Shown in pieces: positions 2,512 to 56,705 of a DNA stretch of 64,000 nt. The translations under genes and the position numbers were made by a program. Every line of letters starts with the position of its first letter. Position 1 is the first letter of the stretch. Source of the DNA: an uncultured Alphaproteobacteria bacterium (GTDB taxonomy: Bacteria > Pseudomonadota > Alphaproteobacteria > Rhizobiales > Beijerinckiaceae); assembly GCA_963775575.1 (NCBI GenBank), contig CAVZJG010000003.1:492963-556962 (forward strand), written 5' to 3'. The notes beneath the pieces are model-generated. The model did not search any database, had not been told where the DNA came from, and worked only from the letters and a program-made list of their open reading frames with translations.

Positions 2512-3282
2512 TCACGACAGCGCCGCCTTGCCGACGAACGGCGTCGAGGGCTGGGCGAGGTCGCGCGGCTGCATCGGGCCGGCGCGATGGGCGGCGGCGC
2601 CGGCTTCGACCGCCTCTTTGAACGCGCGCGCCATCGCGACCGGATCGCCCGCCGTGCCGACCGCGGTGTTGAGCAGCACCGCGTCGTAGCCGAACTCCAT
2701 CGCCGCCGCGGCGTGCGACGGCAGGCCGATGCCGGCGTCGACGATCAGCGTCGCCTCGGGATAGCGCGCCCGCAGCAGGCGCAAGCCGAAGGGATTGTTG
2801 AGGCCCTTGCCGGAGCCGATCGGCGCGCCCCACGGCATCAACGTCTTGCAGCCCGCCTCGATAAGCCGGTCGCAGACGATCAGGTCTTCGGTCGTGTAGG
2901 GAAACACCTCGAAGCCGTCTCGAGCGAGGATGCGCGCGGCCTCGACCGTGCCGAAGACGTCGGGCGCGAGCGTATCGCGGTCGCCGATCACTTCGAGCTT
3001 GATCCAGGCGGTGGCGAAAATCTCGCGCGCCATCTGCGCCGTCGTCACCGCCTCCTTGACCGTGTAGCATCCGGCGGTGTTGGGCAGCACGCGCACGCCG
3101 AGGTCGTGGATGATGCGCCAGAACTCCTGCCCCTCGCGAAATTGGCTCAACTCGCGCCGCACCGAAACCGTGACGACTTCCGCCTCCGCCGCCCGCACGG
3201 ACTTGGCCATGAGGTCGAGCGAGGCGTACTTCGACGTTCCGAGCAGCAGCCGAGACTTCAATGCGACGCCATAGACCTTCAT
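2512..3282 (-). CDS. thiG: thiazole synthase
   Basis: 256 aa, [19 protein letters not shown]...VLPNTAGC...[13 protein letters not shown]. Confidence 0.95.
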
Positions 3283-3340
3283 CGCTCAACTCCTCGCCCC
3301 CGCGCCGCCGCCCGCACCCTCGCTCCATCGCGCCGGCGGC

Positions 3341-3538
3341 CTATCCCCCTTGCCGCGGCGCGACGATCTCGATCCGATCGCCTTCGCTTAAGCTCGTCTC
3401 GGCGCGCTTTCGCGCCGGCACGAAGTCGCCGTTGAGCGCGGTGCCGACCAGCGTTTCTGCGTAATCGAGCGCCTCGAGCGCCGCCGCCAAGGTCTCGGCG
3501 ACGACGTCCTGTTCGACGCCATTGACGACGAGCCTCAT
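3341..3538 (-). CDS. thiS: sulfur-carrier protein ThiS
   Basis: 65 aa, MRLVVNGVEQ...IEIVAPRQGG, with the C-terminal GG. It is the tail of ORF 3341..4075. ATG at 3538 lies 11 nt after the thiC stop. Confidence 0.9.
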   Translation of the reverse strand: MRLVVNGVEQDVVAETLAAALEALDYAETLVGTALNGDFVPARKRAETSLSEGDRIEIVAPRQGG

Positions 3539-3549
3539 CTCCGCCTCGC

Positions 3550-5566
<2,017 letters not shown>

Positions 5567-28309: not shown

Positions 28310-29305
28310 TCACACCGCCTCGGCGAGCGGCGCGCGCGCGACTCGCGCGACCGCTTCGCGCAGCGCTTCGACGCCCGCGTCGGGGCGCACGGCGAGCGTC
28401 GCCAGCGTTTGACGAAAGCGCCGCGCGCCGGGACGGCCGGCGAACAGGCCGAGCATGTGGCGGGTGATTTCATTGAGGCGCGCGCCGCGCGCCAGTTCGC
28501 GCGCGACATAGGGAAAATAGGCCTCGACCGCCTCGAAGGCGTCGGCGAACGGCGCCGGCTCGCCGAAGATTTCCGGGTCGACGCCGAGCAGCATTTCCGG
28601 ATTGTGATACGCGGCGCGGCCGACCATCGCGCCGTCGACCCAGCGCAAATGGCCGCGGACGGCCTCGAGATCGCCGATGCCGCCGTTGACGACGACGGCC
28701 AAGTCGGGATGGGCCGCCTTCACCGCGTAGACGAGCGGATAGTCGAGCGGCGGGACCGTGCGGTTGTCCTTCGCGTTCAGACCTTCGAGCCACGCCTTGC
28801 GCGCGTGGACGACGACGCCGGCCGCGCCCGCCGCCTCGATCGTCTCGACCAGCGCGAACAGGGCCTCGCGCGGCGCCTGCTCGTCGACGCCGATGCGGCA
28901 CTTGACGGTGACGGGGATTGTCGTCGCCGCCGCCAACGCCGCCACGCATTCGGCGACCAGCGCCGGTTCGCGCATCAGGCAGGCGCCGAAACGGCCGGCG
29001 CGCACGCGATCGGAAGGGCAGCCGCAATTGAGGTTGATCTCGTCGTAGCCGAATTCGGCCCCGATGCGCGCCGCCTCGGCGAGCCGACGCGGTTCGGCGC
29101 CGCCGAGCTGCAACGCGATCGGACGCTCGCACGGGTCGAAGCCGATCAGCCGCTCGCGCTGGCCGAACACCACCGCGTCCGCCGCGACCATCTCGCTGTA
29201 GAGCCGCGCGCGCCGCGTCAGCAAGCGATGGAAGACGCGGCAATGCCGGTCGGTACAGTCCATCAGCGGCGCAACGCTAAATCTAAATGATTGATCTGGC
29301 TGCAT
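28310..29305 (-). CDS. dusA: tRNA-dihydrouridine(20/20a) synthase
   Basis: 331 aa, FSVAPLMDCTDRHCRVFHRLLT..., LNCGCPSDRV. Confidence 0.93.
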   Translation of the reverse strand: MQPDQSFRFSVAPLMDCTDRHCRVFHRLLTRRARLYSEMVAADAVVFGQRERLIGFDPCERPIALQLGGAEPRRLAEAARIGAEFGYDEINLNCGCPSDRVRAGRFGACLMREPALVAECVAALAAATTIPVTVKCRIGVDEQAPREALFALVETIEAAGAAGVVVHARKAWLEGLNAKDNRTVPPLDYPLVYAVKAAHPDLAVVVNGGIGDLEAVRGHLRWVDGAMVGRAAYHNPEMLLGVDPEIFGEPAPFADAFEAVEAYFPYVARELARGARLNEITRHMLGLFAGRPGARRFRQTLATLAVRPDAGVEALREAVARVARAPLAEAV

Positions 29306-29417: not shown

Positions 29418-30479
29418 TTGGCGACGTTCACGAAGCTCAATTCCGGTTCCTGGCGAGCCCAGGTGCGGCGGAAAGGAAAATATGTCAACGAGACTTTCCT
29501 TCGCCGAAAGGACGCCGAGGAATGGGCGCTCGATATCGAGCGGCGTATCGATCGCGGCGAACCCGCCCTGGCGCGAAGCTCCCGCAACGCGAAGACATTC
29601 GGCGATTTGATTAAGCTGCATCGCGAGGACCTTCAAGAGGTGGGCAAACCCATCGGACGATCGAAGGCTGCGAGCCTCACCCTTCTCGAGCACAGACTGG
29701 GGCAACTGCGGACCCCAGAACTCGATCGCGGACGGCTCATCCAATTTGGGAAGGAGCGGGCGCGCGAAGGCGCAGGTCCCGTCACTCTCAGTATTGATAT
29801 CGGATATATCAAGACCATCCTGTCGCACGCGGCCGCCGTTCATGGCGTGATACTCTCGGCCGAACCCATCGTTCTCGCGCGAATTGCGCTCGCGCGCCTT
29901 GGTCTCGTTGGGAAAGGGAACGAGCGCGACAGACGACCGACGCAGGACGAGTTGGATCGCCTTGTCGCTGCTTTCGAAGCAAATCCCTACCAACAAATTC
30001 CGGTCGGACGGATCATCCGCTTTGCTGTCGCGACCGCGATGCGCCAGGACGAAATCAGCCGAATTGAATGGGCCGATTTCGACCTGCAGAAGAAGATGCT
30101 CCTCATCAGAGATCGCAAGGATCCGCGAAGGAAGAGCGGGAACAACCAGCGCATTCCTCTGTTAGACGTCACAGGCTACGACGCCTGCGCAATCATCGAA
30201 GAGCAACGATCTCGTGTCGGCAAGAACGGTGGCCGCATCTTCCCCTACAATGGAAGGTCCGTCGGAACGGCGTTCCGGCGCCAGTGTCGCGAGCTCAAGA
30301 TCGAAGACCTTCACTTTCATGACCTCAGGCACGAAGGCACAAGCCGCCTCTTCGAAGCCGGCTTTTCCATCGAGCAGGTCTCGCTCGTCACTGGCCATAA
30401 AGATTGGAAGATGCTCCGACGCTACACGCATCTAAATCCCGAGACGCTGCACCAGCCGCATGTTCGGCGAGTGGCCTAA
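29418..30479 (+). CDS. tyrosine integrase (dusA-associated type)
   Basis: MATFTKLNSGSWRAQVRRKGKY... The C-terminal catalytic region is HFHDLRHEGTSRL...GHKDWKMLRRYTH. TTG start. Confidence 0.9.
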   Translation: MATFTKLNSGSWRAQVRRKGKYVNETFLRRKDAEEWALDIERRIDRGEPALARSSRNAKTFGDLIKLHREDLQEVGKPIGRSKAASLTLLEHRLGQLRTPELDRGRLIQFGKERAREGAGPVTLSIDIGYIKTILSHAAAVHGVILSAEPIVLARIALARLGLVGKGNERDRRPTQDELDRLVAAFEANPYQQIPVGRIIRFAVATAMRQDEISRIEWADFDLQKKMLLIRDRKDPRRKSGNNQRIPLLDVTGYDACAIIEEQRSRVGKNGGRIFPYNGRSVGTAFRRQCRELKIEDLHFHDLRHEGTSRLFEAGFSIEQVSLVTGHKDWKMLRRYTHLNPETLHQPHVRRVA

Positions 30480-37510: not shown

Positions 37511-40500
37511 ATGTTGACATCCTCCGCCACGGCGGCCGCGTGCGCGGCTGCGCCGTTCTCCGCGATGCCCGCCAGCACGGCCCTTGCCGCCCGCATCGCC
37601 GACGCCGCGCGTCTTCTTCTCCCCGATCTCGAACGCGGCCGCCGCATCGACGCGGCCACGCTTCGCGCCGCGATGGAGCGCGCCTTCGGCGGTTCCGATG
37701 CGGAAGGCGCCTGGGACTGGAAGACCGCCTATGACGCCTGCGAGGCGGCGACGGTGCTCTTTCTTCGCAAGTTCGGCCCGGCCATTCGCTTGCACGCCGC
37801 GTCGCCCGCCGCCATGCTGCCGATGCTAGCGAAGATCGCGGGCCTCCTCCCCACCCATACGCGGCGCTCCGAGGAGAGCCAGGCGCTCCAGCAATTCTCG
37901 ACGCCGGTCGCCCTCGGCCTCGCGGCGAGCGCCGCCGCCGCAATCACCTCGGCGGATCGCGTGCTGGAGCCTTCGGCCGGGACCGGCCTGCTCGCGATTC
38001 TCGCGGAGCTCGCCGGCGGCGCGCTCGTGCTCAACGAGCTGGCGGGCGCCCGCGCGGCGCTCCTCGGCCATCTCTTTCCGGGCGTCACGGTCACCCGGTT
38101 CGACGCGGCGCAGATCGATGATCATCTCGATGCCGACAATACGCCGAGCGTCGTGCTGATGAACCCGCCCTTCTCGGCGATGGCCCATGTCGATCGCCAC
38201 ATGGCGGACGCCACGCTCCGTCACATCAATTCCGCTCTCGCGCGCCTCGCCGAAGGCGGTCGCCTCGTCGCCATCACCGCGGCGAGCTTCGCGCCGGACA
38301 ACCCGGTTTGGACCGACGCCTTCGTCCGGCTGCAGCAACGCGGCCGCGTGGTGTTCTCGGCCGCGATCGACGGCGCGGTCTACGCCAAGCACGGCACGAC
38401 CATCGACACGCGGCTGACCGTGATCGACAAACGGCCGGCCGACGATCCCACGCTCTTCCCGACATCGCCGGGGATCGCGCCTGACGCTGCGACGCTGCTC
38501 TCCTGGGTGATGCAGCACATTCCCACGAGGCTGCCGATCGCCGCGGCCGTCGCGGTTTCCCCGGTCGCGCGTCCGGCCATTCCCCGGACTGCGCGCGCAT
38601 ACGCCATGCGCCCGTCCTCCATTCCCGCTAGTACGGTAGAGCCCGAGGCGATCGAGCTCGCCTATGAGACCGTCGACTGGACGCCGGCCGAAGGCGGCGG
38701 AATCACCGATGCGCTTTATGAAGAATACGGATTGCAGTCGATCCGTATTTCCGGCTCTCAGGCGCATCCCACCAGACTGGTGCAGTCAGCGGCGATGGCC
38801 TCGGTCGCGCCGCCGAAGCCGAGCTATCGACCGCATCTCTCAGCGAACATCGTCTCGGGCGGCCTGCTGTCAGACGCGCAGCTCGAATCCATCGTCTATG
38901 CCGGCGAGGCCCATTCGGACTTCCTCGCGGGATCGTGGATGGTGGACGCTGCCTTCGATGTCGTATCCGCCGCACGGGAAGACGCCGAGAACGCCTTCCG
39001 CTTCCGCCGCGGCTGGTTCCTCGGCGACGGCGCCGGCGCCGGCAAGGGCCGCCAGGTCGCCGGCATCTTGCTTGATAATTGGCTGAAGAGCCGTCGCCGC
39101 GCCGTCTGGGTGTCGAAGTCGGACAAGCTGATCGAGGACGCCCAGCGCGATTGGTCGGCGCTCGGCATGGAACGCTTGCTGGTGACGCCGCTGTCGCGCT
39201 TCCGTCAGGGCACGCCGATCCGTCTGACGGAGGGCATCCTATTTGCGACCTACGCCACGCTACGGTCCGACGAACGCGGCGAGAAGGCTTCCCGCGTGAA
39301 GCAGATCGTCGAATGGTTGGGCTCCGATTTCGACGGAGTGATCATTTTCGACGAGAGCCACGCCATGCAGAACGCCGTCGGCGGCAAGGGCGAGCGCGGC
39401 GACCAAGCGGCATCGCAGCAGGGCCGCGCCGGACTTCGCCTCCAGCACGCGCTGCCGAACGCGCGCGTCGTCTACGTCTCCGCGACCGGCGCCACCACCG
39501 TTCACAATCTCGCCTACGCCCAGCGTCTCGGCCTCTGGGGCGGCGAAGATTTCCCCTTCGCCACCCGCGCCGAGTTCGTCGAAGCCATCGAGGCGGGCGG
39601 CGTCGCGGCGATGGAGGTGCTGGCGCGCGACCTCAAGGCTCTCGGTCTCTATGCCTCGCGCTCCCTCAGCTACGAGGGCGTCGAATACGAGTTGCTCGAG
39701 CACCAGCTCACCGACGAGCAGATCCGCATCTACGATGCCTTTGCCGGGGCGTTCTCGATCATCCACAACAATCTCGCCGCGGCTATGGAGGCCGCGAACA
39801 TCACCGGCGAGACCGGCACGCTGAACGCGCAGGCGAAGTCCGCCGCACGCTCCGCCTTCGAGAGCGCCAAGCAGCGCTTCTTCAATCACCTCATCACCGC
39901 GATGAAGACGCCCTCGCTGATCCGCTCGATCGAGCGTGATCTGGAGGCGGGCCGTGCCGCCGTCATCCAGATCGTCTCCACCGGCGAAGCGCTAATGGAG
40001 CGCCGGCTTGCCGAGATCGCGACAGAGGAATGGGGCGACGTCCAGGTCGACATCACGCCGAGGGAATACGTTCTCGATTACCTCGCCCATTCCTTCCCGG
40101 TGCAGCTCTACGAACCGTTCACCAACTCCGAAGGCAATCTCTCGTCTCGGCCGGTCTATCGCGAAGGCCAGCCGGTCGAGTGTCGCGAGGCCGTCGCCCG
40201 CCGCGACCGACTGATCGAGAAGCTCGCTTCTCTCGCGCCCGTTCCCGGCGCGCTCGACCAGATCGTGCAGCGTTTTGGCGCCGACGTCGTCGCCGAGGTG
40301 ACGGGACGCAGCCGTCGGATCATCCGCAAGGGCGACCGCCTCATGGTCGAGAACCGCGCCGGTTCGGCCAATCTGGGCGAAACGCAAGCCTTCATGGACG
40401 ACGTGAAGCGCATCCTCGTCTTCTCCGACGCGGGCGGCACCGGGCGCTCCTACCATGCCGAGCGATCGGCGAAGAACCGGCGGCTGCGCGTCCACTATTT

Positions 40501-41845
40501 GCTGGAGGCCGGATGGAAGGCCGACGCCGCGATTCAGGGGCTGGGCCGGACGAACCGCACCAACCAGGCGCAGCCGCCGCTGTTCCGGCCGATCGCGACC
40601 AACGTGAAGGCGGAGAAGCGCTTCCTCTCCACCATCGCCCGCCGTCTCGACACGCTGGGCGCGATCACCCGCGGCCAGCGTCAGACCGGCGGTCAGGGGC
40701 TGTTTCGCCCCGAGGACAATCTGGAGAGCCACTATGCGCGCGACGCCCTGCGCCAGCTCTATCATCTGCTGGTCAAGGGCAAGATCGAGGGTTGCTCGCT
40801 CGGGCTGTTCGAGGATACGACCGGGCTGAGGCTCACCGACTCGAACGGCATCAAGGACGAACTGCCGCCGATCACGACCTTCCTGAACCGGTTGCTGGCG
40901 CTCACCATCGACCTGCAGAACGTGTTGTTCACGGCGTTCGAGCAATTGCTGACCGCCCGCATCGAAGGCGCGATCGCCAGCGGCGCCTATGACGTCGGGC
41001 TGGAGACGCTGCGGGCCGAGAGCTTCATCGTCACCGACAGGCGCACGATCTATTCCCATCCCGGCACGGGCGCTGAGACCCGGCTGCTCACCGTCACGCA
41101 GCGCGAGCGCAACCGGCCGGTGACGCTCGTTGAGGCCCTGGATCGTCGCTCCGACCGCCGCGCCGTGTTGGTGATCAATGAGCGCTCTGGCCGGACGGCC
41201 GTGCAGGTCCCCGCGCCCAGCCTCATGCTCGACGACGGCGAGATCGAACGGCGCGTGCGGCTCATCCGTCCGATGGAAGCGCACAACGTCCCGCTGAAGA
41301 TGATGGCGGAAAGTCATTGGGTCGAGGCTGACCGCGAGGCTTTCGCCGCCGCGTGGCAAGCAGAGCTTGCCGACGTGCCGGAGTTCACGGACAGCACGAT
41401 CCACATCGTCGCCGGGCTGCTGTTGCCGATCTGGAAACGACTGCCAAACGAAGGCGCGCGGGTTTACCGGCTCCAGACAGATTCCGGCGAACGCATCATC
41501 GGCCGCAGGGTCTCGCCCGCGTGGGCCGCGGGCGCGGCAGCGACGGGCGCGCCCGCGTTGACGCCGGACCAGGCGTTCGCCGCGCTGATGGACGGTGGCG
41601 CCATCCTCAACCTCGCCGAAGGACTTCAGCTCCGCTGCGTCCGCGTCATGGGCGCGAGCCGCATCGAATTGTCGGGCTTCACCGACGCGATGCGCGATCG
41701 GCTGCGCGCCGATGGCCTCTTCCATGAGATCATCTCATGGAAGCTTCGGATGTTCGTTCCGACCGACGCCAGCGGCGTCGCCATCCTGGCGAAGCTGCTG
41801 GAGCGCTACGCAATCGAGCGCGTCGCGGACCGCGGGGCCGCCTGA
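37511..41845 (+). CDS. N6-adenine methyltransferase fused to a strawberry-notch-like helicase (1444 aa)
   Basis: LEPSAGTGLL and VLMNPPF (SAM and NPPF motifs), then GDGAGAGKGRQ (P-loop), IIFDESHAMQNA (DExH), and a Sbno-type C-terminal domain. Confidence 0.9.
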   Translation: MLTSSATAAACAAAPFSAMPASTALAARIADAARLLLPDLERGRRIDAATLRAAMERAFGGSDAEGAWDWKTAYDACEAATVLFLRKFGPAIRLHAASPAAMLPMLAKIAGLLPTHTRRSEESQALQQFSTPVALGLAASAAAAITSADRVLEPSAGTGLLAILAELAGGALVLNELAGARAALLGHLFPGVTVTRFDAAQIDDHLDADNTPSVVLMNPPFSAMAHVDRHMADATLRHINSALARLAEGGRLVAITAASFAPDNPVWTDAFVRLQQRGRVVFSAAIDGAVYAKHGTTIDTRLTVIDKRPADDPTLFPTSPGIAPDAATLLSWVMQHIPTRLPIAAAVAVSPVARPAIPRTARAYAMRPSSIPASTVEPEAIELAYETVDWTPAEGGGITDALYEEYGLQSIRISGSQAHPTRLVQSAAMASVAPPKPSYRPHLSANIVSGGLLSDAQLESIVYAGEAHSDFLAGSWMVDAAFDVVSAAREDAENAFRFRRGWFLGDGAGAGKGRQVAGILLDNWLKSRRRAVWVSKSDKLIEDAQRDWSALGMERLLVTPLSRFRQGTPIRLTEGILFATYATLRSDERGEKASRVKQIVEWLGSDFDGVIIFDESHAMQNAVGGKGERGDQAASQQGRAGLRLQHALPNARVVYVSATGATTVHNLAYAQRLGLWGGEDFPFATRAEFVEAIEAGGVAAMEVLARDLKALGLYASRSLSYEGVEYELLEHQLTDEQIRIYDAFAGAFSIIHNNLAAAMEAANITGETGTLNAQAKSAARSAFESAKQRFFNHLITAMKTPSLIRSIERDLEAGRAAVIQIVSTGEALMERRLAEIATEEWGDVQVDITPREYVLDYLAHSFPVQLYEPFTNSEGNLSSRPVYREGQPVECREAVARRDRLIEKLASLAPVPGALDQIVQRFGADVVAEVTGRSRRIIRKGDRLMVENRAGSANLGETQAFMDDVKRILVFSDAGGTGRSYHAERSAKNRRLRVHYLLEAGWKADAAIQGLGRTNRTNQAQPPLFRPIATNVKAEKRFLSTIARRLDTLGAITRGQRQTGGQGLFRPEDNLESHYARDALRQLYHLLVKGKIEGCSLGLFEDTTGLRLTDSNGIKDELPPITTFLNRLLALTIDLQNVLFTAFEQLLTARIEGAIASGAYDVGLETLRAESFIVTDRRTIYSHPGTGAETRLLTVTQRERNRPVTLVEALDRRSDRRAVLVINERSGRTAVQVPAPSLMLDDGEIERRVRLIRPMEAHNVPLKMMAESHWVEADREAFAAAWQAELADVPEFTDSTIHIVAGLLLPIWKRLPNEGARVYRLQTDSGERIIGRRVSPAWAAGAAATGAPALTPDQAFAALMDGGAILNLAEGLQLRCVRVMGASRIELSGFTDAMRDRLRADGLFHEIISWKLRMFVPTDASGVAILAKLLERYAIERVADRGAA

Positions 41846-45997: not shown

Positions 45998-46451
45998 GCC
46001 GGACCTGCAAACGCTCCGCCCGGTCCTCCGGGCGGGGCTTTCCCGTCTTCACGGTCTTTCGCCGACCGCGGAGAACAAAACAGCGGCGCGCTCCCTCGCC
46101 CGCGGTGCTCAAGAAGGCAATACGCGCGCGCAATCGCATGCTCGACGAATTGCGCTCTCGGATCGAGCCAACAAGAACGCGCCGCGACCGCGACGCCCGG
46201 TCGCGCCCTTCGACGCGCGAGCATGACATCAGATCGTCGCGGGGGCGGCGTAACATCGCACCTACTCACCGAGGTGGCCGATGATGGCGTCAATAGCGCC
46301 ACAGCATGGCTGTCACGCTGGTCGCCACTCGCGTTCTCGTTTCGACGAAAGGCTTCGTGCTCTGGCCGCGCCAGGCACAGGAGCGTTTCACCCCAGCGCC
46401 CGTCGGTGTCGCGTTGATTTGCGCGGATCCGGCTTTGCGGAACCGTGGTTT

Positions 46452-46706
46452 TCAGGATTTGCGTTTCGACGCCTTTGCGCCTTCATTGCGCGCCTCGTCG
46501 TCCGGCGTGACCAGATCGATGTGACTGACGCCAAGCGCGCTGGCGAGATGAAAGAGCGTCACGACAGTCGGGTTGCGCCGTCCCCGTTCCAGATCGCTCA
46601 CATATTGCTGCGTGAAGCCCGAGACCTCGGCGAAACGCTCCTGGGTGAAGCCCTTCTCCCTGCGAAATCTCCCGAAATTCCGGCCCACGAGTTTGCGCAT
46701 GTCCAT
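46452..46706 (-). CDS. XRE-family HTH regulator (QseC-like)
   Basis: GFTQERFAEVSGFTQQYVSDLERGRRNPT. Divergent from the small DUF2285 gene. Confidence 0.85.
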   Translation of the reverse strand: MDMRKLVGRNFGRFRREKGFTQERFAEVSGFTQQYVSDLERGRRNPTVVTLFHLASALGVSHIDLVTPDDEARNEGAKASKRKS

Positions 46707-46724
46707 ATGCGCACGTTGGGGCTT

Positions 46725-46758
46725 TACATACTATGAGGTTTATCTCCTATAATATGTA
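46725..46758. promoter_or_regulatory. imperfect palindrome in the AT-rich divergent promoter region (candidate operator)
   Basis: TACATACTATGAGG-tttatct-CCTATAATATGTA between the XRE gene and the DUF2285 gene. Confidence 0.4.
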
Positions 46759-46870
46759 TTCTCGACCCATGCTCTCGCGCTATCTAAAATAAGGCTAAAC
46801 TTTGGCGAATGTGTCGTAAGCCAGCGCACGTTCGTTGGTGGGAGCCCATTCTTTGTCACGCAGGATCCCA

Positions 46871-47149
46871 ATGCGGAAACCACCGCTCAATTCCGATGTC
46901 GCCGATGTCGCGCCGACCGATCCGGCGCTGGCGACGTACGACGAACAGCACCTGATCACTTACCTGCGGCTTCTCGACGCAGACGCCGAAGGCGCCGATT
47001 GGCGAGAAGTTGCGACGATCGTGTTGCACATCGATCCGGATCGCGAGCCAGGACGCGCACAGCGCGCCTTCGAAAGCCATCTGGCTCGGGCCAAGTGGAT
47101 GATAGAACACGGTTATCGTCATCTGTTGCGCGGCGGAGCGCCGGATTGA
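46871..47149 (+). CDS. small DUF2285-like protein (QseM-like antiactivator candidate)
   Basis: LITYLRLLDADAEGADWREVATIVL...HGYRHLL parallels the C-terminal DUF2285 region of 47499..48080 (LALRALDARNEGATYRTIAEGLF...GGYRKLL). AGGA lies 6 nt upstream of ATG 46871. Confidence 0.65.
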   Translation: MRKPPLNSDVADVAPTDPALATYDEQHLITYLRLLDADAEGADWREVATIVLHIDPDREPGRAQRAFESHLARAKWMIEHGYRHLLRGGAPD

Positions 47150-47263
47150 AGCAGATCGTCGTTCGCGGCGCCGAAGTCGAAATTGTTCGCACCTCAACGA
47201 TCGCTTCTGTGCATCGCGTGATGCACAATTGAGGACTTCCCTCAACTCATCATCGCCAAAATC

Positions 47264-47506
47264 ATGGCGCCGTCATCAATTACCGCTCACGCCGAAAGGG
47301 AAAACGACGCGATGCCCCATTTTGATTGGCGATCACCGGAGACATACGACCGCGCCGCGGAACTCGAGCCGACGGGCCTTGCTTGGGAATGTCTTCGTCG
47401 AAATCCGGATTATCGTCGGGATCATCACGAACTCGCACATTCAGACCCTGAAACCAACGTGAGCGCGATGTTCAGAAAGCGCTGGGGCCTCTGTTTTCGC
47501 CGCTGA
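47264..47506 (+). CDS. DUF6499 ORF, the 5' part of an FseA-like activator
   Basis: DWRSPETYDRAAELEPTGLAWECLRRNPDYRRD. The ORF ends ...KRWGLCFRR*. Confidence 0.75.
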   Translation: MAPSSITAHAERENDAMPHFDWRSPETYDRAAELEPTGLAWECLRRNPDYRRDHHELAHSDPETNVSAMFRKRWGLCFRR

Positions 47507-48080
47507 CCCAGGACTATCTTCGCACGATCAAGCGATATTCTGGGCGCCGGAAGTTCTGCCGACAATTGTTCCAATCGTTCGAACCCTCACCGGCGCCGCC
47601 GAGAATGTCCTCGATCTGGCGGATTTGTTCGCGGACGAGTCACGGCGAGCGTCTGACGGTTGGCATGTTCTTTTCCGCCTTTGCGGGATCGAGCACCGGG
47701 TCTTTTTGAAAGAGGCGCCGGTCATCGGCGAGTCTTACGCCGTCGAACTGCCGTTCGACGATGTCTTCGATATTCGCGTGCATGCCGCGCGCCGTCTCTG
47801 GCGCGCGCTCAATGGGCGTTGTGCTGGCCCGGCTTTCCATCAGCTTTCTCGACAGCGCCGACAGCGGCTGGCGCTGGCGCTCCGCGCCCTTGACGCCCGA
47901 AACGAGGGCGCCACTTATCGGACGATCGCCGAGGGTCTGTTCGGAGCCAAACGCATTCCCGAACGAGCCTGGAAGACCCACGACTTGCGCAACCGGACCA
48001 TTCGCCTTGTGCGAAGTGGTTTGGCGCTGATGCGCGGCGGCTACCGCAAACTGCTGCACCTGTCGCGTCGAAAGCAGTAG
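47499..48080 (+). CDS. DUF2285 region in the +1 frame, the 3' part of an FseA-like activator (probably expressed by +1 frameshift)
   Basis: The +1 frame is open from 47463 and reads FAADPGLSSHDQAIFWAPEVLPTIV... with no ATG or RBS before the conserved part. The track's start at 47625 is a TTG. Confidence 0.65.
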   Translation, partial: AADPGLSSHDQAIFWAPEVLPTIVPIVRTLTGAAENVLDLADLFADESRRASDGWHVLFRLCGIEHRVFLKEAPVIGESYAVELPFDDVFDIRVHAARRLWRALNGRCAGPAFHQLSRQRRQRLALALRALDARNEGATYRTIAEGLFGAKRIPERAWKTHDLRNRTIRLVRSGLALMRGGYRKLLHLSRRKQ

Positions 48081-48221
48081 CGAACCGTTCCCGCTGAGAG
48101 GGGGCGCCACAAATCCACCCCCTCATATTCGGCATCCCCCTTCGCCGTTCTGCTCCGCCAACGTGACCTCCAACGCTCCGCTGACCTCGGCGGCGCTCCA
48201 CGAGATCACGGAGGCCCTCAA

Positions 48222-48506
48222 ATGCCCGATCCCCTGGCCGGTTTGCCGCCGCGCTTTCTCAGAACGCCCGAAGCCGCGCGCTTCCTCGGTCTATCCGGTC
48301 GCACGCTGGAGAAGCACCGCACCTACGGCACGGGTCCGAAGTACCGCAAGATCGGCGGCCGCGTGGTCTATGCGCTCGACGACCTCCAGGCTTGGGCCGA
48401 TGTCGGCGCCAAGAGTTCGACCTCCGATCCCGGCGTCGGAACCGTCTTTCCCGCCAAGCGCCATGGCGCCGTCCCCCTGGCCTATGCCGGCCGGCCGCGG
48501 CGCTGA
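48222..48506 (+). CDS. excisionase-family (MerR-like) HTH protein, RdfS-like RDF candidate
   Basis: FLRTPEAARFLGLSGRTLEKHRTYGTGPKYRKIGGRVVYALDDLQAW. Strong GGAGG RBS. Confidence 0.75.
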   Translation: MPDPLAGLPPRFLRTPEAARFLGLSGRTLEKHRTYGTGPKYRKIGGRVVYALDDLQAWADVGAKSSTSDPGVGTVFPAKRHGAVPLAYAGRPRR

Positions 48507-48511
48507 CTCTC

Positions 48512-49414
48512 ATGTCGAGCAAGCGCGTGTTTCCCCATCATCGCGAGAATTCGGCGCGTGAACAGCTCGATCTGTTCCGCGCGCTTCCCGGCGATCTCGC
48601 GCCGCGCGACGCGCAGGACCTCATGGCCTATCCCTTCTTCTCCCTCGCCAAGTCGAAGCGCCTGGCCCCGATTGATTTCAGGGCGGGCCCGATCTCTATC
48701 CGCGTGGAGGCCGTCCCAGAGCATGGCATGGCGACCATCTGGGACGCCGATGTGCTGATCTGGGCGGCGTCCCAGATCGTCCACGCGCGAGACGCCGGCC
48801 TCAAGACCTCCCGCCTGATGGCGGCGACGCCATACGAGATCCTGACCTTCGTCGGCCGCGGCGCCAGCGCCCGCGACTATCAGCGGCTCAAGGCCGGGCT
48901 CGACCGGCTCCAGTCCACCACGGTCGCGACCTCGATCCGGCAGCCGGCCGAACGTCGTCGTCATCGCTTTTCCTGGATCAACGAATGGAAGGAGACGTCC
49001 GACGCCCACGGCCGCGCGCTTGGGATCGAGATGATCCTGCCCGACTGGTTCTACGTCGGCGTCCTCGATGACGCGCTCGTTCTCACCATCGATCGAGACT
49101 ATTTCGCACTGACCGGCGGCATCGAGCGCTGGCTCTATCGCCTCGTGCGCAAGCATGGCGGCCGTCAGGAATATGGCTGGAGCTTCAACTTCGCCTATCT
49201 GCACGCCAAGTCCGGCAGCCTCTCGCCGATCAAGCATTTCGCATACGACCTGCGCGACATCGTCCGCCGCCAGCCCTTGCCCGGCTACAGCCTGGCGATC
49301 GAGCGCAACGCCTCTGGCGGAGAGCGGCTCGAGTTCAAACCGTCATCCATTAATCCGCTCGCGCAGCCCTTGCGGCGTTTTCAGCGCGCGGCCTGCCCTG
49401 GGGATAACCTGTGA
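48512..49414 (+). CDS. replication initiator protein A (RepA-like)
   Basis: QLDLFRALPGDLAPRDAQDLMAYPFFSLAKSKR... Confidence 0.85.
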   Translation: MSSKRVFPHHRENSAREQLDLFRALPGDLAPRDAQDLMAYPFFSLAKSKRLAPIDFRAGPISIRVEAVPEHGMATIWDADVLIWAASQIVHARDAGLKTSRLMAATPYEILTFVGRGASARDYQRLKAGLDRLQSTTVATSIRQPAERRRHRFSWINEWKETSDAHGRALGIEMILPDWFYVGVLDDALVLTIDRDYFALTGGIERWLYRLVRKHGGRQEYGWSFNFAYLHAKSGSLSPIKHFAYDLRDIVRRQPLPGYSLAIERNASGGERLEFKPSSINPLAQPLRRFQRAACPGDNL

Positions 49415-54655: not shown

Positions 54656-56500
54656 TTACCGCGCGAAGGCGGCGGATCGCTCGGTCACGATGGCGATCAC
54701 CTTGTCTTGCGCGGCTCGGGCACTGTCCGATCGACCCGCAAAATCGGGCAGGCGCAACGATGCGGCGCGCGCCGCGAGACGCGACGCAAGCTCAACCACC
54801 GTCGCCTCGGCTTCGCCCGTCGGCAGACCGATCGTGCGCGCCAGTGCGAGGAAGTCTTGCAGGCTCAGCCGGTCGTCCTTGCCATTGAGCTTCAACGCCA
54901 TCCGGTCCCCGCCCAACCCCGGAAAGACGCGCGTGGTGACGGCGTCATAGAGCGGCGCAAACCGGACGGACGTGAACGCTTTGGCTCCAGCGTCGGCCGT
55001 TTTGAGCATGGCGAGGTTCTTAAGGTGCATGTCGCCATCAGCAATCAGCCAGGCGAAGACGGCCCGCTTAAACAGGATTTCAAGGTCAGCCGCAGGTTCG
55101 GTCGACAGCGGCCGCAGGCCCCTGGCAATGCGTTCGATCGTGCCGTCGTATTTTGCCGAAGCCGGAAGATCCAGGATCGAGCAGAAGTCCTCCAGCGCAA
55201 GGCGGCGTTGGTCCTTGGGACCGCGCCGGATGTCGAAACGCTCGACCACCAGCGCCGGCGACATGCCATCGGGCATTTCAATGAGCGCCGCTGCCGGGGC
55301 GTCAAAACCGGCCGCACGTCCGAACTCGAGACAGAGCCACTCCACGACGGGCAACGCCGCGAACCCGGCCGTACCGGCCGGTTTGAGAATGTGCGTGAAC
55401 GGCTGGTCGATGGCCGGGACGAGAGCGCCGTCGGCGGCAAGGCTCATCGGCGCCTTGATCTGGACGCCCGACAGGCGGGGCGTCTCGGCGCGCGCGAAGA
55501 TGCGCGCGAGATTCTGCTCGAAAGTCTCCTCGATCTCCCCGCGCGCCGGTCCGGCATAGCGTCCGGTGAACCGGCCTGCATCGGTGAAGGCAGCGAGCGG
55601 CGCGGCGAGGACGTCGGCCGGCAACGCGGCCAGTTCCTCGCGGCTTTCGACGATGGCGATGTTCGACATATAGCGCCGGCCGCGGCGAAGCGCCTCGCGT
55701 TCGTCGCGTTCATGCAGAACCTGCGCGAGCCAGCCTTCGGGCAGGAGCGACTCGATGAAGGCCGGAAGCTTTCCCGGCGTGGTCTCCCGCACCAGCGCCG
55801 GCCCAACGCGCTTTTGCGGTTTCCATCGCCATTCGAAACCGTCATGCGTCAGCCGTCCGAGCGGGTCGCCGTGCCAGGCGACGAGAAGGTCGAGCGCCGC
55901 CTTGTTGACTGGAGCCTTGGCCGTTCCCGGCTGGGCCAGGAGGTAGCGCTCGGCGCCCTCGCCTTCGCGATACCAAGCATTCTCGCGAGCCAGCGCCCAG
56001 ACCGCGCCGGCCGCAGCCTGCGGGGACCCATGCTCTTCGACCAGACGCGCCGCCATCTGAGTTCGCATGTCCACGGTGACCGCGCTGGCGTGCTCACTCC
56101 TCAGCCGAAAGGCTTCCAGGAATCGCTGGCGCGGCGACGACACATCGATACGCAACTCCCCCAGATCGTCGCCGATCACCGCTATCGCCGTCGACGGATG
56201 CGGCGGCGCCTCGTTCTGGACGATCTCAAGGGTGCGCAGGCGGGTGCGTTGATTGCGCCGGCCGCTAATGAAAAGTCTTCCGTCCGGCGTGGGCGCCAGG
56301 AGAACCGCGCTCGCGGACGACAAATAGGCCTTTGGGTAGAGATAATGGGCGATGCGGACGGCATGGCCGAGGATCGCGGCCTCCGCGTCCCCGTCGTGAT
56401 CGACATAAACGCCGCGGACAAGCTGGATCAGCTCGCCCGCTTGGGCCCGAAGGTGCGCCCGCTTGGCGTCGATGGTTTCGCCGACAAGATGGATGGTCAT
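54656..56500 (-). CDS. HipA-family Ser/Thr kinase fused to an AbiEi-like N-terminal domain
   Basis: The C-terminal ~400 aa carry LLPEGW, SGVQIKAPM, DGDMHLKNLAML and FAPLYDAVTT (HipA N-terminal plus kinase core). The N-terminal ~230 aa carry AGELIQLVRGVYVD...AYLSSASAVLL, like AbiEi antitoxin domains. Start at 56500, alternative 56515. Confidence 0.8.
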   Translation of the reverse strand: MTIHLVGETIDAKRAHLRAQAGELIQLVRGVYVDHDGDAEAAILGHAVRIAHYLYPKAYLSSASAVLLAPTPDGRLFISGRRNQRTRLRTLEIVQNEAPPHPSTAIAVIGDDLGELRIDVSSPRQRFLEAFRLRSEHASAVTVDMRTQMAARLVEEHGSPQAAAGAVWALARENAWYREGEGAERYLLAQPGTAKAPVNKAALDLLVAWHGDPLGRLTHDGFEWRWKPQKRVGPALVRETTPGKLPAFIESLLPEGWLAQVLHERDEREALRRGRRYMSNIAIVESREELAALPADVLAAPLAAFTDAGRFTGRYAGPARGEIEETFEQNLARIFARAETPRLSGVQIKAPMSLAADGALVPAIDQPFTHILKPAGTAGFAALPVVEWLCLEFGRAAGFDAPAAALIEMPDGMSPALVVERFDIRRGPKDQRRLALEDFCSILDLPASAKYDGTIERIARGLRPLSTEPAADLEILFKRAVFAWLIADGDMHLKNLAMLKTADAGAKAFTSVRFAPLYDAVTTRVFPGLGGDRMALKLNGKDDRLSLQDFLALARTIGLPTGEAEATVVELASRLAARAASLRLPDFAGRSDSARAAQDKVIAIVTERSAAFAR

Positions 56501-56504
56501 CGGA

Positions 56505-56588
56505 TTATCTCGCATCTCAGATGCGCGTTGATCCTGCTCCAGGCTTAAACAGTCAAGAATTATCTCGCATCTGAGATACGAGATATTG
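56505..56588. promoter_or_regulatory. two copies of the TTATCTCGCATCT(C/G)AGAT operator-like palindrome upstream of or over the hipA-like start
   Basis: The copies lie at 56505-56522 and 56560-56577. The distal copy is part of a 13-bp-arm palindrome TATCTCGCATCT-G-AGATACGAGATA. Confidence 0.55.
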
Positions 56589-56705
56589 CCGTCATCACGC
56601 TGACCCACAAGCCGTCCGAATCCTTCGCCGCCCTATCCTGAAACGCGCCCGCCAGCAATTCGGGCTTGAACGCGCCATAGAAGGGTCTCTTGATCCCCCT
56701 GCGCC

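What the first reader, a model, noticed from the sequence alone, without database searches (positions are those of the whole stretch)
47463..47506. Candidate +1 programmed ribosomal frameshift joining DUF6499 and DUF2285 ORFs (FseA-type activator)
ORF 47264-47506 (DUF6499) ends ...KRWGLCFRR*. The +1 frame is open from 47463 and continues without any ATG or RBS as FAADPGLSSHDQAIFWAPEVLPTIV... into the DUF2285 domain; the ORF track's start at 47625 is just a TTG.

In single-ORF homologues, as far as I recall, WGL.F is followed directly by ..DP....A...FW.P. So the two frames together reconstruct one protein of about 270 aa.

The overlap contains U-UUU-C (47494-47498), where tRNA-Phe could re-pair from UUU to UUC, followed by CGC CGC UGA.

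In ICEMlSymR7A the excision activator FseA is known to be produced only by +1 frameshifting between msi172 and msi171.
Basis: partly seen in the sequence, partly recalled or inferred. Interest (0 to 1): 0.65.

Follow-up and report, generated by a model that had tools for sequence, protein, structure and literature searches.

The report
FseA-type +1 frameshift gene on ICE
Two overlapping reading frames in a mobile element of an uncultured soil or peat bacterium most likely encode one transfer-activator protein, made only when the ribosome slips forward one base at a conserved UUU-C; this device is already known and widespread, so the case is ordinary.

Summary

- **Frames.** ORF 47264-47506 (DUF6499, PF20109) ends RWGLCFRR*. 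The +1 frame is open from 47463 to 48080 (DUF2285, PF10074) and has no ATG, GTG or TTG before 47625.
- **Junction.** Joining the frames after Phe (TTT 47495-47497, skipping C 47498) gives a protein that aligns without a gap to single-ORF homologues.
- **Not an error.** Contigs from eight independent metagenome runs show no indel at the site.
- **Conserved.** In 75 of 81 loci (80 genomes plus the window) the two halves are offset by +1, with exactly one base skipped after this Phe codon. All 67 distinct split genes have TTT followed by C or T. Six distant plasmid homologues also have TGG GGN NNN NNN TTT C.
- **No conserved own start.** The second half has no conserved start codon of its own.
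- **Context.** The gene sits in an ICE backbone. A QseC-like and a QseM-like gene (PDB 7UQT, E 9e-19) lie upstream. An RdfS-like gene with a conserved inverted repeat lies downstream, followed by transfer genes.

Published work reports this +1 frameshift for FseA of ICEMlSymR7A and for about 61% of 4709 homologues. This is a new member of a known kind, of low interest.

Corrections: the true start is probably ATG 47312, giving 255 aa, and no quorum-sensing genes were found nearby.

The parts
46452..46706 (-). QseC-like Cro/C1-type HTH regulator gene, divergent from the qseM-like gene
   Evidence: PF01381 HTH_3, E 6.1e-15. Found upstream on the minus strand in 72 of 81 related loci.
46871..47149 (+). 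QseM-like antiactivator gene (DUF2285 domain only, no DUF6499). The mechanical ORF starts at TTG 46835; ATG 46871 is the likely start.
   Evidence: PF10074, E 5.2e-10. Matches PDB 7UQT (molecule named 'Quorum sensing master protein'; taken here as the QseM NMR structure of PMC10359603) at E 9.1e-19 over 77 residues. Net charge -5. Upstream and co-oriented in 79 of 81 loci.
47312..47506 (+). ORF1 in the 0 frame (msi172-like): DUF6499 domain with the AWECLRRN motif. Unshifted translation ends at TGA 47504-47506. The mechanical ORF starts at ATG 47264.
   Evidence: PF20109, E 3.4e-23. Met17 is the invariant start in alignment A1. A 1-nt indel at 47278 in five other contigs argues against ATG 47264.
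47483..47488 (+). G-rich, Shine-Dalgarno-like UGGGGC that encodes the conserved Trp-Gly, seven bases upstream of the slip codon
   Evidence: TGG GGN is invariant in 67 distinct split genes and in six distant plasmid loci. PMC10359603 describes it as an RBS-like UGGGGG. Most Bradyrhizobium relatives also have AGGAGG just upstream; the window has AGAAAGCGC instead.
47495..47498 (+). Slip site UUU-C. tRNA-Phe on UUU (0 frame) re-pairs with UUC (+1 frame), giving the junction ...RWGLCF|AADPG...
   Evidence: TTT in 67 of 67 distinct split genes, against 38% TTT at other Phe codons of the same genes. The next base is C in 59 and T in 8. Truly fused homologues L002 and L065 have TTC here. tblastn shows exactly one base skipped in 75 of 81 loci.
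47504..47506 (+). 0-frame stop UGA that ends the unshifted DUF6499-only product (64 aa from Met17)
   Evidence: TGA lies two codons after the slip codon in 66 of 67 close relatives, but at variable distance in distant ones.
47499..48080 (+). ORF2 in the +1 frame (msi171-like): middle domain plus the DUF2285 helix-extended-turn-helix DNA-binding domain, ending at TAG 48078-48080
   Evidence: PF10074, E 7.2e-35. There is no start codon before TTG 47625, although residues D81, P82, Q89, W93, A94, P95, E96 and L98 upstream of it are invariant. The last 90 residues have net charge +17.
48106..48133 (+). FseA-box-like inverted repeat: GCCACA, 16 bp, TTCGGC, upstream of the rdfS-like gene
   Evidence: The consensus GCCGAA-N16-TTCGGC sits at the same place in the upstream regions of the 79 loci that have an rdfS-like gene downstream. 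The geometry matches the published FseA box, two inverted hexamers 15-16 bp apart (PMC10359603). The left hexamer in the window matches only 4 of 6. An overlapping GAGGGGG/CCCCCTC repeat lies at 48098-48124.
48222..48506 (+). RdfS-like HTH_17 (excisionase-type) gene, the presumed target of the activator
   Evidence: PF12728, E 3.6e-08. Found downstream of fseA in 79 loci.

Best explanation
The two ORFs form one gene for an FseA-family transcriptional activator of an integrative and conjugative element (ICE).

Proposed mechanism:
1. Translation starts most likely at ATG 47312 and reads the DUF6499 domain in the 0 frame.
2. With UUU (47495-47497) in the P site, a minority of ribosomes let tRNA-Phe re-pair one base forward on UUC (47496-47498).
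3. Decoding continues in the +1 frame (GCC GCU GAC CCA...) through the middle domain and the DUF2285 DNA-binding domain to TAG 48080. This gives a 255-aa protein with the junction ...RWGLCF-AADPG....
4. Ribosomes that do not slip stop at UGA 47504 and release a 64-aa DUF6499-only peptide.
5. The full-length protein would bind the inverted repeat upstream of the rdfS-like gene and switch on excision and transfer.
6. The QseM-like protein encoded just upstream would hold it in check by binding its DUF6499 domain.

Shown here: the frame structure, its reality in independent assemblies, colinearity with fused homologues, conservation of the exact site, the absence of a conserved independent start, and the ICE context.

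Inferred from published work on ICEMlSymR7A: that the event is ribosomal, its low efficiency (4-13%), and the roles of FseA, QseM and RdfS.
For: - **Frames and domains:**
- **Colinearity:** gap-free alignment of the fused product to single-ORF homologues P0002, P0074, P0103 and others, with F78, D81 and P82 invariant.
- **Real sequence:** no indel at 47463-47506 in contigs of eight independent runs. A minor variant in X2 has 47491 C>T (synonymous in frame 0) and 47501 C>A (synonymous in frame +1).
- **Conserved offset:** in 75 of 81 loci the N part ends at the Phe codon and the C part starts two bases later.
- **Conserved site:** TG[CT] TTT [CT] in all split genes. TTT occurs in 67 of 67 genes, against 38% at other Phe codons.
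- **Codon phase:** the least-conserved codon position moves by +1 at the site.
- **No own start:** in 53 of 67 genes the first possible +1-frame start lies after the conserved FWAPE motif, and the positions are scattered. Gene callers chose different starts.
- **Distant homologues:** plasmid loci at 33-42% identity in Mesorhizobium, Ketogulonicigenium, Sinorhizobium, Methylocystis, Paracoccus and Niveispirillum all have TGG GGN NNN NNN TTT C followed by F|[AP]x[DN]P in the +1 frame.
- **Neighbours:** QseM-like matches PDB 7UQT at E 9e-19. A conserved repeat lies upstream of the rdfS-like gene. The ICE backbone is present.
- **Literature:** PMC4755241 (UUUC, tRNA-Phe, 4-13%, upstream G-rich region) and PMC10359603 (about 61% of 4709 homologues are split at the conserved +1 PRF site; WGL is encoded by an SD-like UGGGGG).
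Against: - No protein-level evidence exists for this locus.
- The primary paper with the mass-spectrometry data (PMC4386382) is not held, so it could not be read.
- The window lacks the AGGAGG that most Bradyrhizobium relatives have upstream of UGGGG, so the stimulator may be weaker.
- The 0-frame codon after UUU is CGC (59 of 67 relatives). Its usage was not measured here, so no slow or hungry A-site codon has been shown.
- The left half of the FseA-box-like repeat is degenerate in the window (GCCACA against the consensus GCCGAA).
- The AlphaFold model of the fused protein was too poor to use (pLDDT 57).
Confidence: 0.88

Rival explanations
1. Assembly or sequencing error: a base was wrongly added, and the real gene is a simple fused ORF.
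For: Only the general fact that metagenome assemblies contain homopolymer errors. The window does differ from other contigs by a 1-nt indel elsewhere, at 47278.
Against: Contigs of eight independent runs (X1-X6, X11, X16) agree with the window across 47463-47506 with no indel. The same one-base offset is present in 74 other genomes, including complete chromosomes.
Confidence: 0.01
2. Pseudogene: a frameshift mutation inactivated a formerly fused fseA gene, and neither half has a function now.
For: Decayed copies do exist. L001, L006, L045 and L051 carry a second frame disruption besides the conserved site.
Against: - The break is at the identical codon in 75 of 81 loci whose proteins are only 45-75% identical.
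- Both halves keep coding-type conservation in their own frames.
- TTT is fixed at the site.
- Both Pfam domains are intact with strong scores.
- The window shows no other disruption.
Confidence: 0.03
3. Two separate proteins: the DUF6499 peptide and a DUF2285 protein are translated independently, the second from TTG 47625 or by reinitiation, and act as a two-subunit regulator without any frameshift.
For: - A 151-aa product from TTG 47625 would still contain the whole Pfam DUF2285 domain.
- PMC9601964 claims that the Azorhizobium caulinodans homologues have individual start and stop codons.
- The closest clade has a GTG right after the slip site.
Against: - The 42 codons between the junction and TTG 47625 contain no start codon, yet they hold eight invariant residues: D81, P82, Q89, W93, A94, P95, E96 and L98.
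- Candidate starts in relatives are scattered, and in 53 of 67 genes they lie after FWAPE.
- Conservation in the +1 frame begins exactly at the base after TTT-C.
Confidence: 0.05
4. Transcriptional slippage: RNA polymerase drops one U in the T-run, so a fraction of mRNAs carry a fused ORF and the ribosome does not shift.
For: The site contains a T-run, TTTT at 47494-47497 in the window. The outcome (a fused protein) would look the same as a ribosomal shift.
Against: - The run is only three T in 64 of 67 relatives (C TTT C). By general knowledge, known slippage sites need longer runs.
- A metatranscriptome contig (X26, 47386-47590) is identical to the DNA through the site. Contigs would hide a minority form, though.
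- The published analysis of R7A calls the event ribosomal (PMC4755241).
Confidence: 0.03

Closest known systems
FseA (msi172-msi171) of ICEMlSymR7A, Mesorhizobium japonicum R7A, and the FseA family with the conserved +1 PRF site
   Same: - DUF6499 and DUF2285 in two ORFs offset by +1.
- The junction follows the WGL motif directly.
- UUU-C slip codon with UGGGG upstream.
- AWE.LRRN motif.
- A QseM homologue and a QseC-like C-protein gene next to it.
- An rdfS-like gene preceded by two inverted hexamers 16 bp apart.
- traF, an SLT-domain gene, a DUF3363 protein gene (the putative relaxase) and trb genes on the same element.

(PMC4755241, PMC10359603)
   Different: - The qseM-like gene is immediately upstream and co-oriented with fseA. 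In R7A, qseM is convergent with traI2-msi172-msi171 (PMC8789080).
- No traR/traI was seen among the ORFs scanned.
- repA (RPA) and parA lie between the rdfS-like gene and traF.
- AGGAGG is absent upstream of UGGGG.
- The direct relation to the R7A protein was not measured. Identity to the M. japonicum pMLb homologue is only about 34%.
RovC, type VI secretion activator of Yersinia (PDB 6XZ5)
   Same: Same two-domain architecture. Weak but two-sided sequence match: AWECLRRNP in the N domain and the DUF2285 region in the C domain, E 7.6e-06.
   Different: RovC matches as one continuous 252-residue chain. By the literature it is a single-ORF, hexameric activator of type VI secretion genes, not an ICE regulator (PMC10359603 and its reference 30).
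prfB (release factor 2) +1 programmed frameshift
   Same: A +1 slip of a P-site tRNA on a U-rich codon, with an upstream Shine-Dalgarno-like element.
   Different: By general knowledge, in prfB the slip happens at CUU-U with the in-frame UGA in the A site and the SD-like element 3 nt upstream. Here the A-site codon is a sense codon (CGC), the stop lies two codons further on (and further still in distant homologues), and the G-run ends 7 nt before UUU.

Membership tests
FseA family, two-ORF variant with +1 PRF | N-terminal DUF6499 domain with the AWEFLRRN-like motif | tested here: met
   PF20109, E 3.4e-23, covering the whole profile (1-60 of 60). The motif is AWECLRRN.
FseA family, two-ORF variant with +1 PRF | C-terminal DUF2285 (helix-extended-turn-helix) domain with a positive charge | tested here: met
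   PF10074, E 7.2e-35, profile positions 2-107 of 107. Net charge +17 over the last 90 residues. No usable surface model was obtained.
FseA family, two-ORF variant with +1 PRF | The two domains lie in ORFs offset by +1, and the joined product is colinear with single-ORF members | tested here: met
   gap-free alignment across the junction, and one base skipped.
FseA family, two-ORF variant with +1 PRF | Conserved slip site UUUC right after the WGL-coding G-rich sequence | tested here: met
   The window has TGG GGC CTC TGT TTT C. The same pattern is found in 67 of 67 distinct relatives and in six distant plasmid loci.
FseA family, two-ORF variant with +1 PRF | The full-length fusion protein is produced by ribosomal frameshifting | not testable with these tools
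   This needs mass spectrometry, western blots or reporter assays. The only indirect point is an RNA contig identical to the DNA at the site.
FseA family, two-ORF variant with +1 PRF | Measurable sequence similarity to the archetype Msi172/Msi171 of R7A | not tested
Surrogates: 33.6% identity to the homologue on M. japonicum MAFF303099 plasmid pMLb, and a shared Pfam family.
FseA-QseM-RdfS excision control module of ICEs | A DUF2285-only antiactivator (QseM) with negative charge, encoded nearby | tested here: met
   ORF 46871-47149 matches PDB 7UQT (molecule named 'Quorum sensing master protein'; taken here as QseM) at E 9.1e-19. Net charge -5.
FseA-QseM-RdfS excision control module of ICEs | An rdfS-type gene preceded by an FseA box (two inverted hexamers 15-16 bp apart) | tested here: inconclusive
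   The geometry is met and is conserved across the 79 loci with an rdfS-like gene (GCCGAA-N16-TTCGGC). The window's left hexamer is GCCACA. The published hexamer sequence could not be retrieved for comparison. Binding was not tested.
FseA-QseM-RdfS excision control module of ICEs | Quorum-sensing input (traR/traI, tra box) as in ICEMlSymR7A | tested here: not met
   No LuxR- or LuxI-type domain was found in the 29 ORFs scanned, which cover most of 28.3-63.3 kb. A few small ORFs there were not scanned. The gene directly upstream is qseM-like. This is a feature of the R7A circuit, not of the FseA family.
FseA-QseM-RdfS excision control module of ICEs | Located on a conjugative element | tested here: met
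   Integrase, ArdC, a DUF3363 protein (the putative relaxase), TraG coupling protein, TraF, SLT, TrbB, VirB3 and TrbE are in the same window.
prfB-type +1 frameshift | In-frame stop codon in the A site at the moment of the slip | tested here: not met
   The codon after UUU is CGC. The UGA lies two codons downstream, and at variable distance in distant homologues.

The most novel reading that the evidence does not exclude
In this Bradyrhizobium-type ICE family the antiactivator gene (qseM-like) lies directly upstream of fseA in the same orientation. No terminator-like site and no promoter-like site was found between them, and no quorum-sensing genes were seen.

If the two genes are co-transcribed, the frameshift would do more than dampen noise. 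It would fix a large excess of antiactivator over activator from a single mRNA. The abundant unshifted 64-aa DUF6499 peptide could then act as a decoy that titrates QseM. Together these would give a quorum-sensing-independent threshold switch for ICE transfer.
Probability: 0.2. Interest if true: 0.45.

Novelty: new member of a known kind. Interest (0 to 1): 0.15.

Why it matters
**For annotation.** The two ORFs should be joined as one recoded gene, an FseA-family activator. They should not be called a DUF6499 protein plus a truncated DUF2285 protein, or a pseudogene. The public plasmid records inspected annotate such pairs as separate proteins.

**For biology.** The gene marks the element at about 29.4 kb to beyond 63 kb as an ICE with an apparently intact transfer switch, in an uncultured soil or peat alphaproteobacterium.

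The case adds no new principle. The mechanism and its wide distribution are already published.

Tried and rejected
- **Primary paper.** PMC4386382 (mass spectrometry of the junction) is not held.
- **Structure.** The AlphaFold2 model of the fused protein, from a 9-row alignment, had mean pLDDT 56.8 and pTM 0.46. It is too poor to judge interdomain contacts, so no fold search was run.
- **FseA box sequence.** A search of the supplement of PMC10359603 for the hexamers found nothing. The box could be compared by geometry only.
- **RNA structure.** Nothing stands out downstream of the slip site (z-score +0.84).
- **Terminators and promoters.** No terminator-like site in 46300-48600. One promoter-like site at 46762-46790, upstream of the qseM-like gene.
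- **tRNA genes.** None in the window that could mark an attachment site.
- **First motif search.** A strict-regex search for frames missed 31 loci and was replaced by tblastn.
- **Rejected readings.** Assembly error, pseudogene, independent initiation and transcriptional slippage; see the rival explanations.

Full report
**1. The observation**

- ORF 47264-47506 ends ...KRWGLCFRR*.
- Its last codons are TGG 47483, GGC 47486, CTC 47489, TGT 47492, TTT 47495, CGC 47498, CGC 47501 and TGA 47504.
- The +1 frame has a stop at 47460-47462 and is then open to TAG 48078-48080.
- The first ATG, GTG or TTG in that frame is the TTG at 47625, 42 codons after the proposed junction.
- Pfam assigns ORF1 to PF20109 (DUF6499, E 3.4e-23) and the +1 part to PF10074 (DUF2285, E 7.2e-35). 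The joined protein carries both domains.

**2. Is the joined protein real?**

Joining the frames after Phe78, with base C 47498 skipped, gives ...RKRWGLCF-AADPGLSSHDQAIFWAPEVLP.... This aligns without any gap to single-ORF homologues from the protein database. Examples are P0002 from Bradyrhizobium shewense (RRRWGSAFAHDPQRSFDEQTIFWAPEVLA) and P0074/P0103 (RQRWGFLFAADPDQAFDAQTIFWAPEVLP). F78, D81, P82, Q89, W93, A94, P95, E96 and L98 are invariant.

These conserved residues lie upstream of any possible start codon in the +1 frame. Ribosomes must therefore reach them from the 0 frame.

The same alignment shows that Met17 (ATG 47312, MPHFDW) is the common start. Five independent metagenome contigs have a 1-nt deletion at 47278, which puts ATG 47264 out of frame. 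The product is thus most likely 255 aa.

**3. Not an assembly error**

Near-identical sequence is held by many soil, peat and permafrost metagenome runs. Contigs of eight runs (X1-X6, X11, X16) cover the overlap and show no inserted or missing base there.

A low-depth variant in X2 differs at 47491 (C>T, synonymous in frame 0) and at 47501 (C>A, synonymous in frame +1). This is what a frame change between these two positions predicts.

**4. Conservation**

A scan of one genome per species returned 80 related loci, mostly Bradyrhizobium and Afipia. The counts below include the window as locus 81.
- By tblastn, in 75 of 81 loci the N part ends at the Phe codon and the C part begins two bases later. 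That is a +1 offset with exactly one base skipped, at protein identities of about 45-75%.
- Two loci (L002, L065) are truly fused and read ...TTC GCC... at this point.
- Four loci (L001, L006, L045, L051) carry the conserved site plus a second disruption. They look decayed or mis-assembled.
- Among 67 distinct simply split genes, the Phe codon is TTT in all 67. Elsewhere in the same genes the count is 209 TTT to 336 TTC.
- In those 67 genes the next base is C in 59 and T in 8, the preceding codon is TGC in 64 and TGT in 3, and a 0-frame TGA follows two codons later in 66.
- The least-conserved codon position is the third position of frame 0 upstream of the site and the third position of frame +1 downstream of it.
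- Six distant plasmid homologues at 33-42% identity all read TGG GGN NNN NNN TTT C, with the +1 frame continuing F|[AP]x[DN]P. They come from Mesorhizobium japonicum pMLb, Ketogulonicigenium, Sinorhizobium, Methylocystis, Paracoccus and Niveispirillum. Their 0-frame stop lies at variable distance.

The conserved core is therefore UGGGG, seven bases, then UUU-C. The U before UUU and the nearby UGA are not part of it.

**5. No own start for the second half**

In 53 of 67 relatives the first possible start codon in the +1 frame lies after the conserved FWAPE motif, and the positions are scattered. Gene callers picked many different starts for the DUF2285 proteins: VTDPA..., LRHSEPDGG..., MIAPGNW..., MIFWAPE... 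and others.

Only the clade closest to the window has a GTG directly after the slip site, as part of a UUU-U-GUG variant.

**6. RNA**

One metatranscriptome contig (X26, 47386-47590) crosses the site and is identical to the DNA. The locus therefore appears to be transcribed in peat, and the dominant RNA form is unedited. A minority form cannot be excluded from contigs.

No unusual RNA structure follows the site. By general knowledge, +1 frameshift sites usually need none.

**7. Context**

The gene sits in an ICE. In order, the ORFs are:
- tyrosine integrase (29418-30479)
- AbiE toxin-antitoxin pair
- ArdC
- a ParB_N-like protein
- a 1444-aa Strawberry-notch-type helicase
- a YspA SLOG protein
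- DUF736
- QseC-like HTH gene (46452-46706, minus strand)
- QseM-like gene (46871-47149)
- the split fseA
- RdfS-like HTH_17 gene (48222-48506)
- replication initiator RPA
- ParA
- an RHH protein
- TraF (peptidase S26)
- an SLT transglycosylase
- a DUF3363 protein, the putative relaxase
- HipA
- TraG coupling protein
- TrbB, VirB3 and TrbE

The QseM-like protein matches PDB 7UQT at E 9.1e-19. The depositors call that molecule 'Quorum sensing master protein', and I take it to be the QseM NMR structure of PMC10359603. The QseM-like protein has net charge -5, against +17 for the DUF2285 end of the activator. This fits the published contrast between a negative antiactivator and a positive DNA binder (PMC10359603).

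Upstream of the rdfS-like gene, related loci share the inverted repeat GCCGAA-N16-TTCGGC. The window has GCCACA-N16-TTCGGC at 48106-48133. The geometry equals that of the published FseA box, but the published sequence could not be retrieved for comparison.

The order qseC(-), qseM, fseA, rdfS, RPA is kept in 72-79 of 81 loci.

**8. Mechanism**

The best-supported reading is a +1 programmed ribosomal frameshift. tRNA-Phe decodes UUU in the P site and re-pairs with UUC one base ahead. By general knowledge bacteria have a single tRNA-Phe, with anticodon GAA, so UUC is its Watson-Crick codon. The upstream SD-like UGGGG may stall or strain the ribosome.

Most ribosomes stop at UGA 47504 and release a 64-aa DUF6499 peptide. 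A minority make the 255-aa activator. The rate (4-13%), the ribosomal nature of the event and the downstream roles are taken from work on ICEMlSymR7A (PMC4755241, PMC10359603, PMC8789080). None of them was tested here.

**9. Comparison with what is known**

This is the FseA device. PMC10359603 reports 4709 unique FseA homologues across proteobacteria, about 61% of them split at the conserved +1 PRF site and routinely mis-annotated. A profile search of 1.84 billion cluster representatives found 2295 related clusters at E <= 0.001. By my own count of its best 150 hits, about 40 span both domains and about 49 begin near the junction.

Differences from the R7A archetype are regulatory:
- The qseM-like gene is upstream and co-oriented rather than convergent.
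- No quorum-sensing genes were seen.
- repA and parA are inserted after the rdfS-like gene.
- The window lacks the AGGAGG that most relatives have before UGGGG.

It differs from the prfB frameshift in that no stop codon sits in the A site.

**10. Verdict**

The locus is a new member of a known kind and of low interest. Its practical value is correct annotation of the gene and of the ICE.

The most novel reading left open is that co-transcription of qseM-like and fseA makes the frameshift a device that sets the antiactivator-to-activator ratio, with the short peptide acting as a QseM decoy.

Noticed in passing
window 29418-63287 (and beyond the window end): A whole ICE backbone: integrase, AbiEii/AbiEi, ArdC, a ParB_N-like protein, a 1444-aa Strawberry-notch-like helicase (37511-41845), YspA SLOG, DUF736, RPA, ParA, TraF, SLT, a DUF3363 protein (the putative relaxase), HipA (54656-56608, minus strand), TraG, TrbB, VirB3 and TrbE. 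A dus gene lies just left of the integrase (28310-29305). There is no tRNA gene in the window, so the attachment site is not a tRNA here.
   Followed up: partly
window 47278: A 1-nt indel separates the window from contigs of five other metagenome runs (X3, X4, X5, X6, X11). It lies upstream of the conserved Met17 start, so it probably falls in the 5' leader and not in coding sequence. All eight runs that cover it also read G instead of A at 47244.
   Followed up: partly
window 48098-48133: Two overlapping symmetric elements lie upstream of the rdfS-like gene: GAGGGGG/CCCCCTC (13 nt apart) and GCCACA-N16-TTCGGC. Both are conserved in related loci (consensus GGGGTGCCGAAAATCGCCCCCTCNATATTCGGCATCCCCCT). 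Which one the activator reads is open.
   Followed up: partly
L001, L006, L045, L051 (around positions 3000-3800 of each locus): These Bradyrhizobium copies keep the conserved TTT-C site but have a second frame disruption elsewhere in the gene. They are either decaying copies or draft-assembly errors.
   Followed up: partly
L005, L011, L012, L017, L047, L072, L079, L003 (junction region): The clade closest to the window has TTT T GTG/GCG instead of TTT C GCC. That makes a UUU-U slip site (identical re-pairing), and in most of these loci a GTG codon sits right after it. Gene callers use that GTG as a start, giving 193-aa 'DUF2285 proteins'.
   Followed up: partly
window 46707-46870: The qseC-like/qseM-like intergenic region has an AT-rich inverted repeat TACATACTAT/ATAATATGTA (46725-46758), TGCGCA palindromes at 46694-46713, and one sigma-70-like promoter match at 46762-46790 facing the qseM-like gene. 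These are candidate operators of the QseC-like repressor.
   Followed up: no
window 46400-48470: Peat and bioreactor metatranscriptome contigs cover parts of the qseC-like, qseM-like, fseA and rdfS-like genes at low depth. The module or close relatives may therefore be transcribed in situ, although DNA carry-over cannot be excluded.
   Followed up: partly
window 48392-48512: The mechanical RPA ORF (TTG 48392) overlaps the rdfS-like gene. The likely real start is ATG 48512 (MSSKRV...), six bases after the rdfS-like stop, which suggests an rdfS-repA operon.
   Followed up: no
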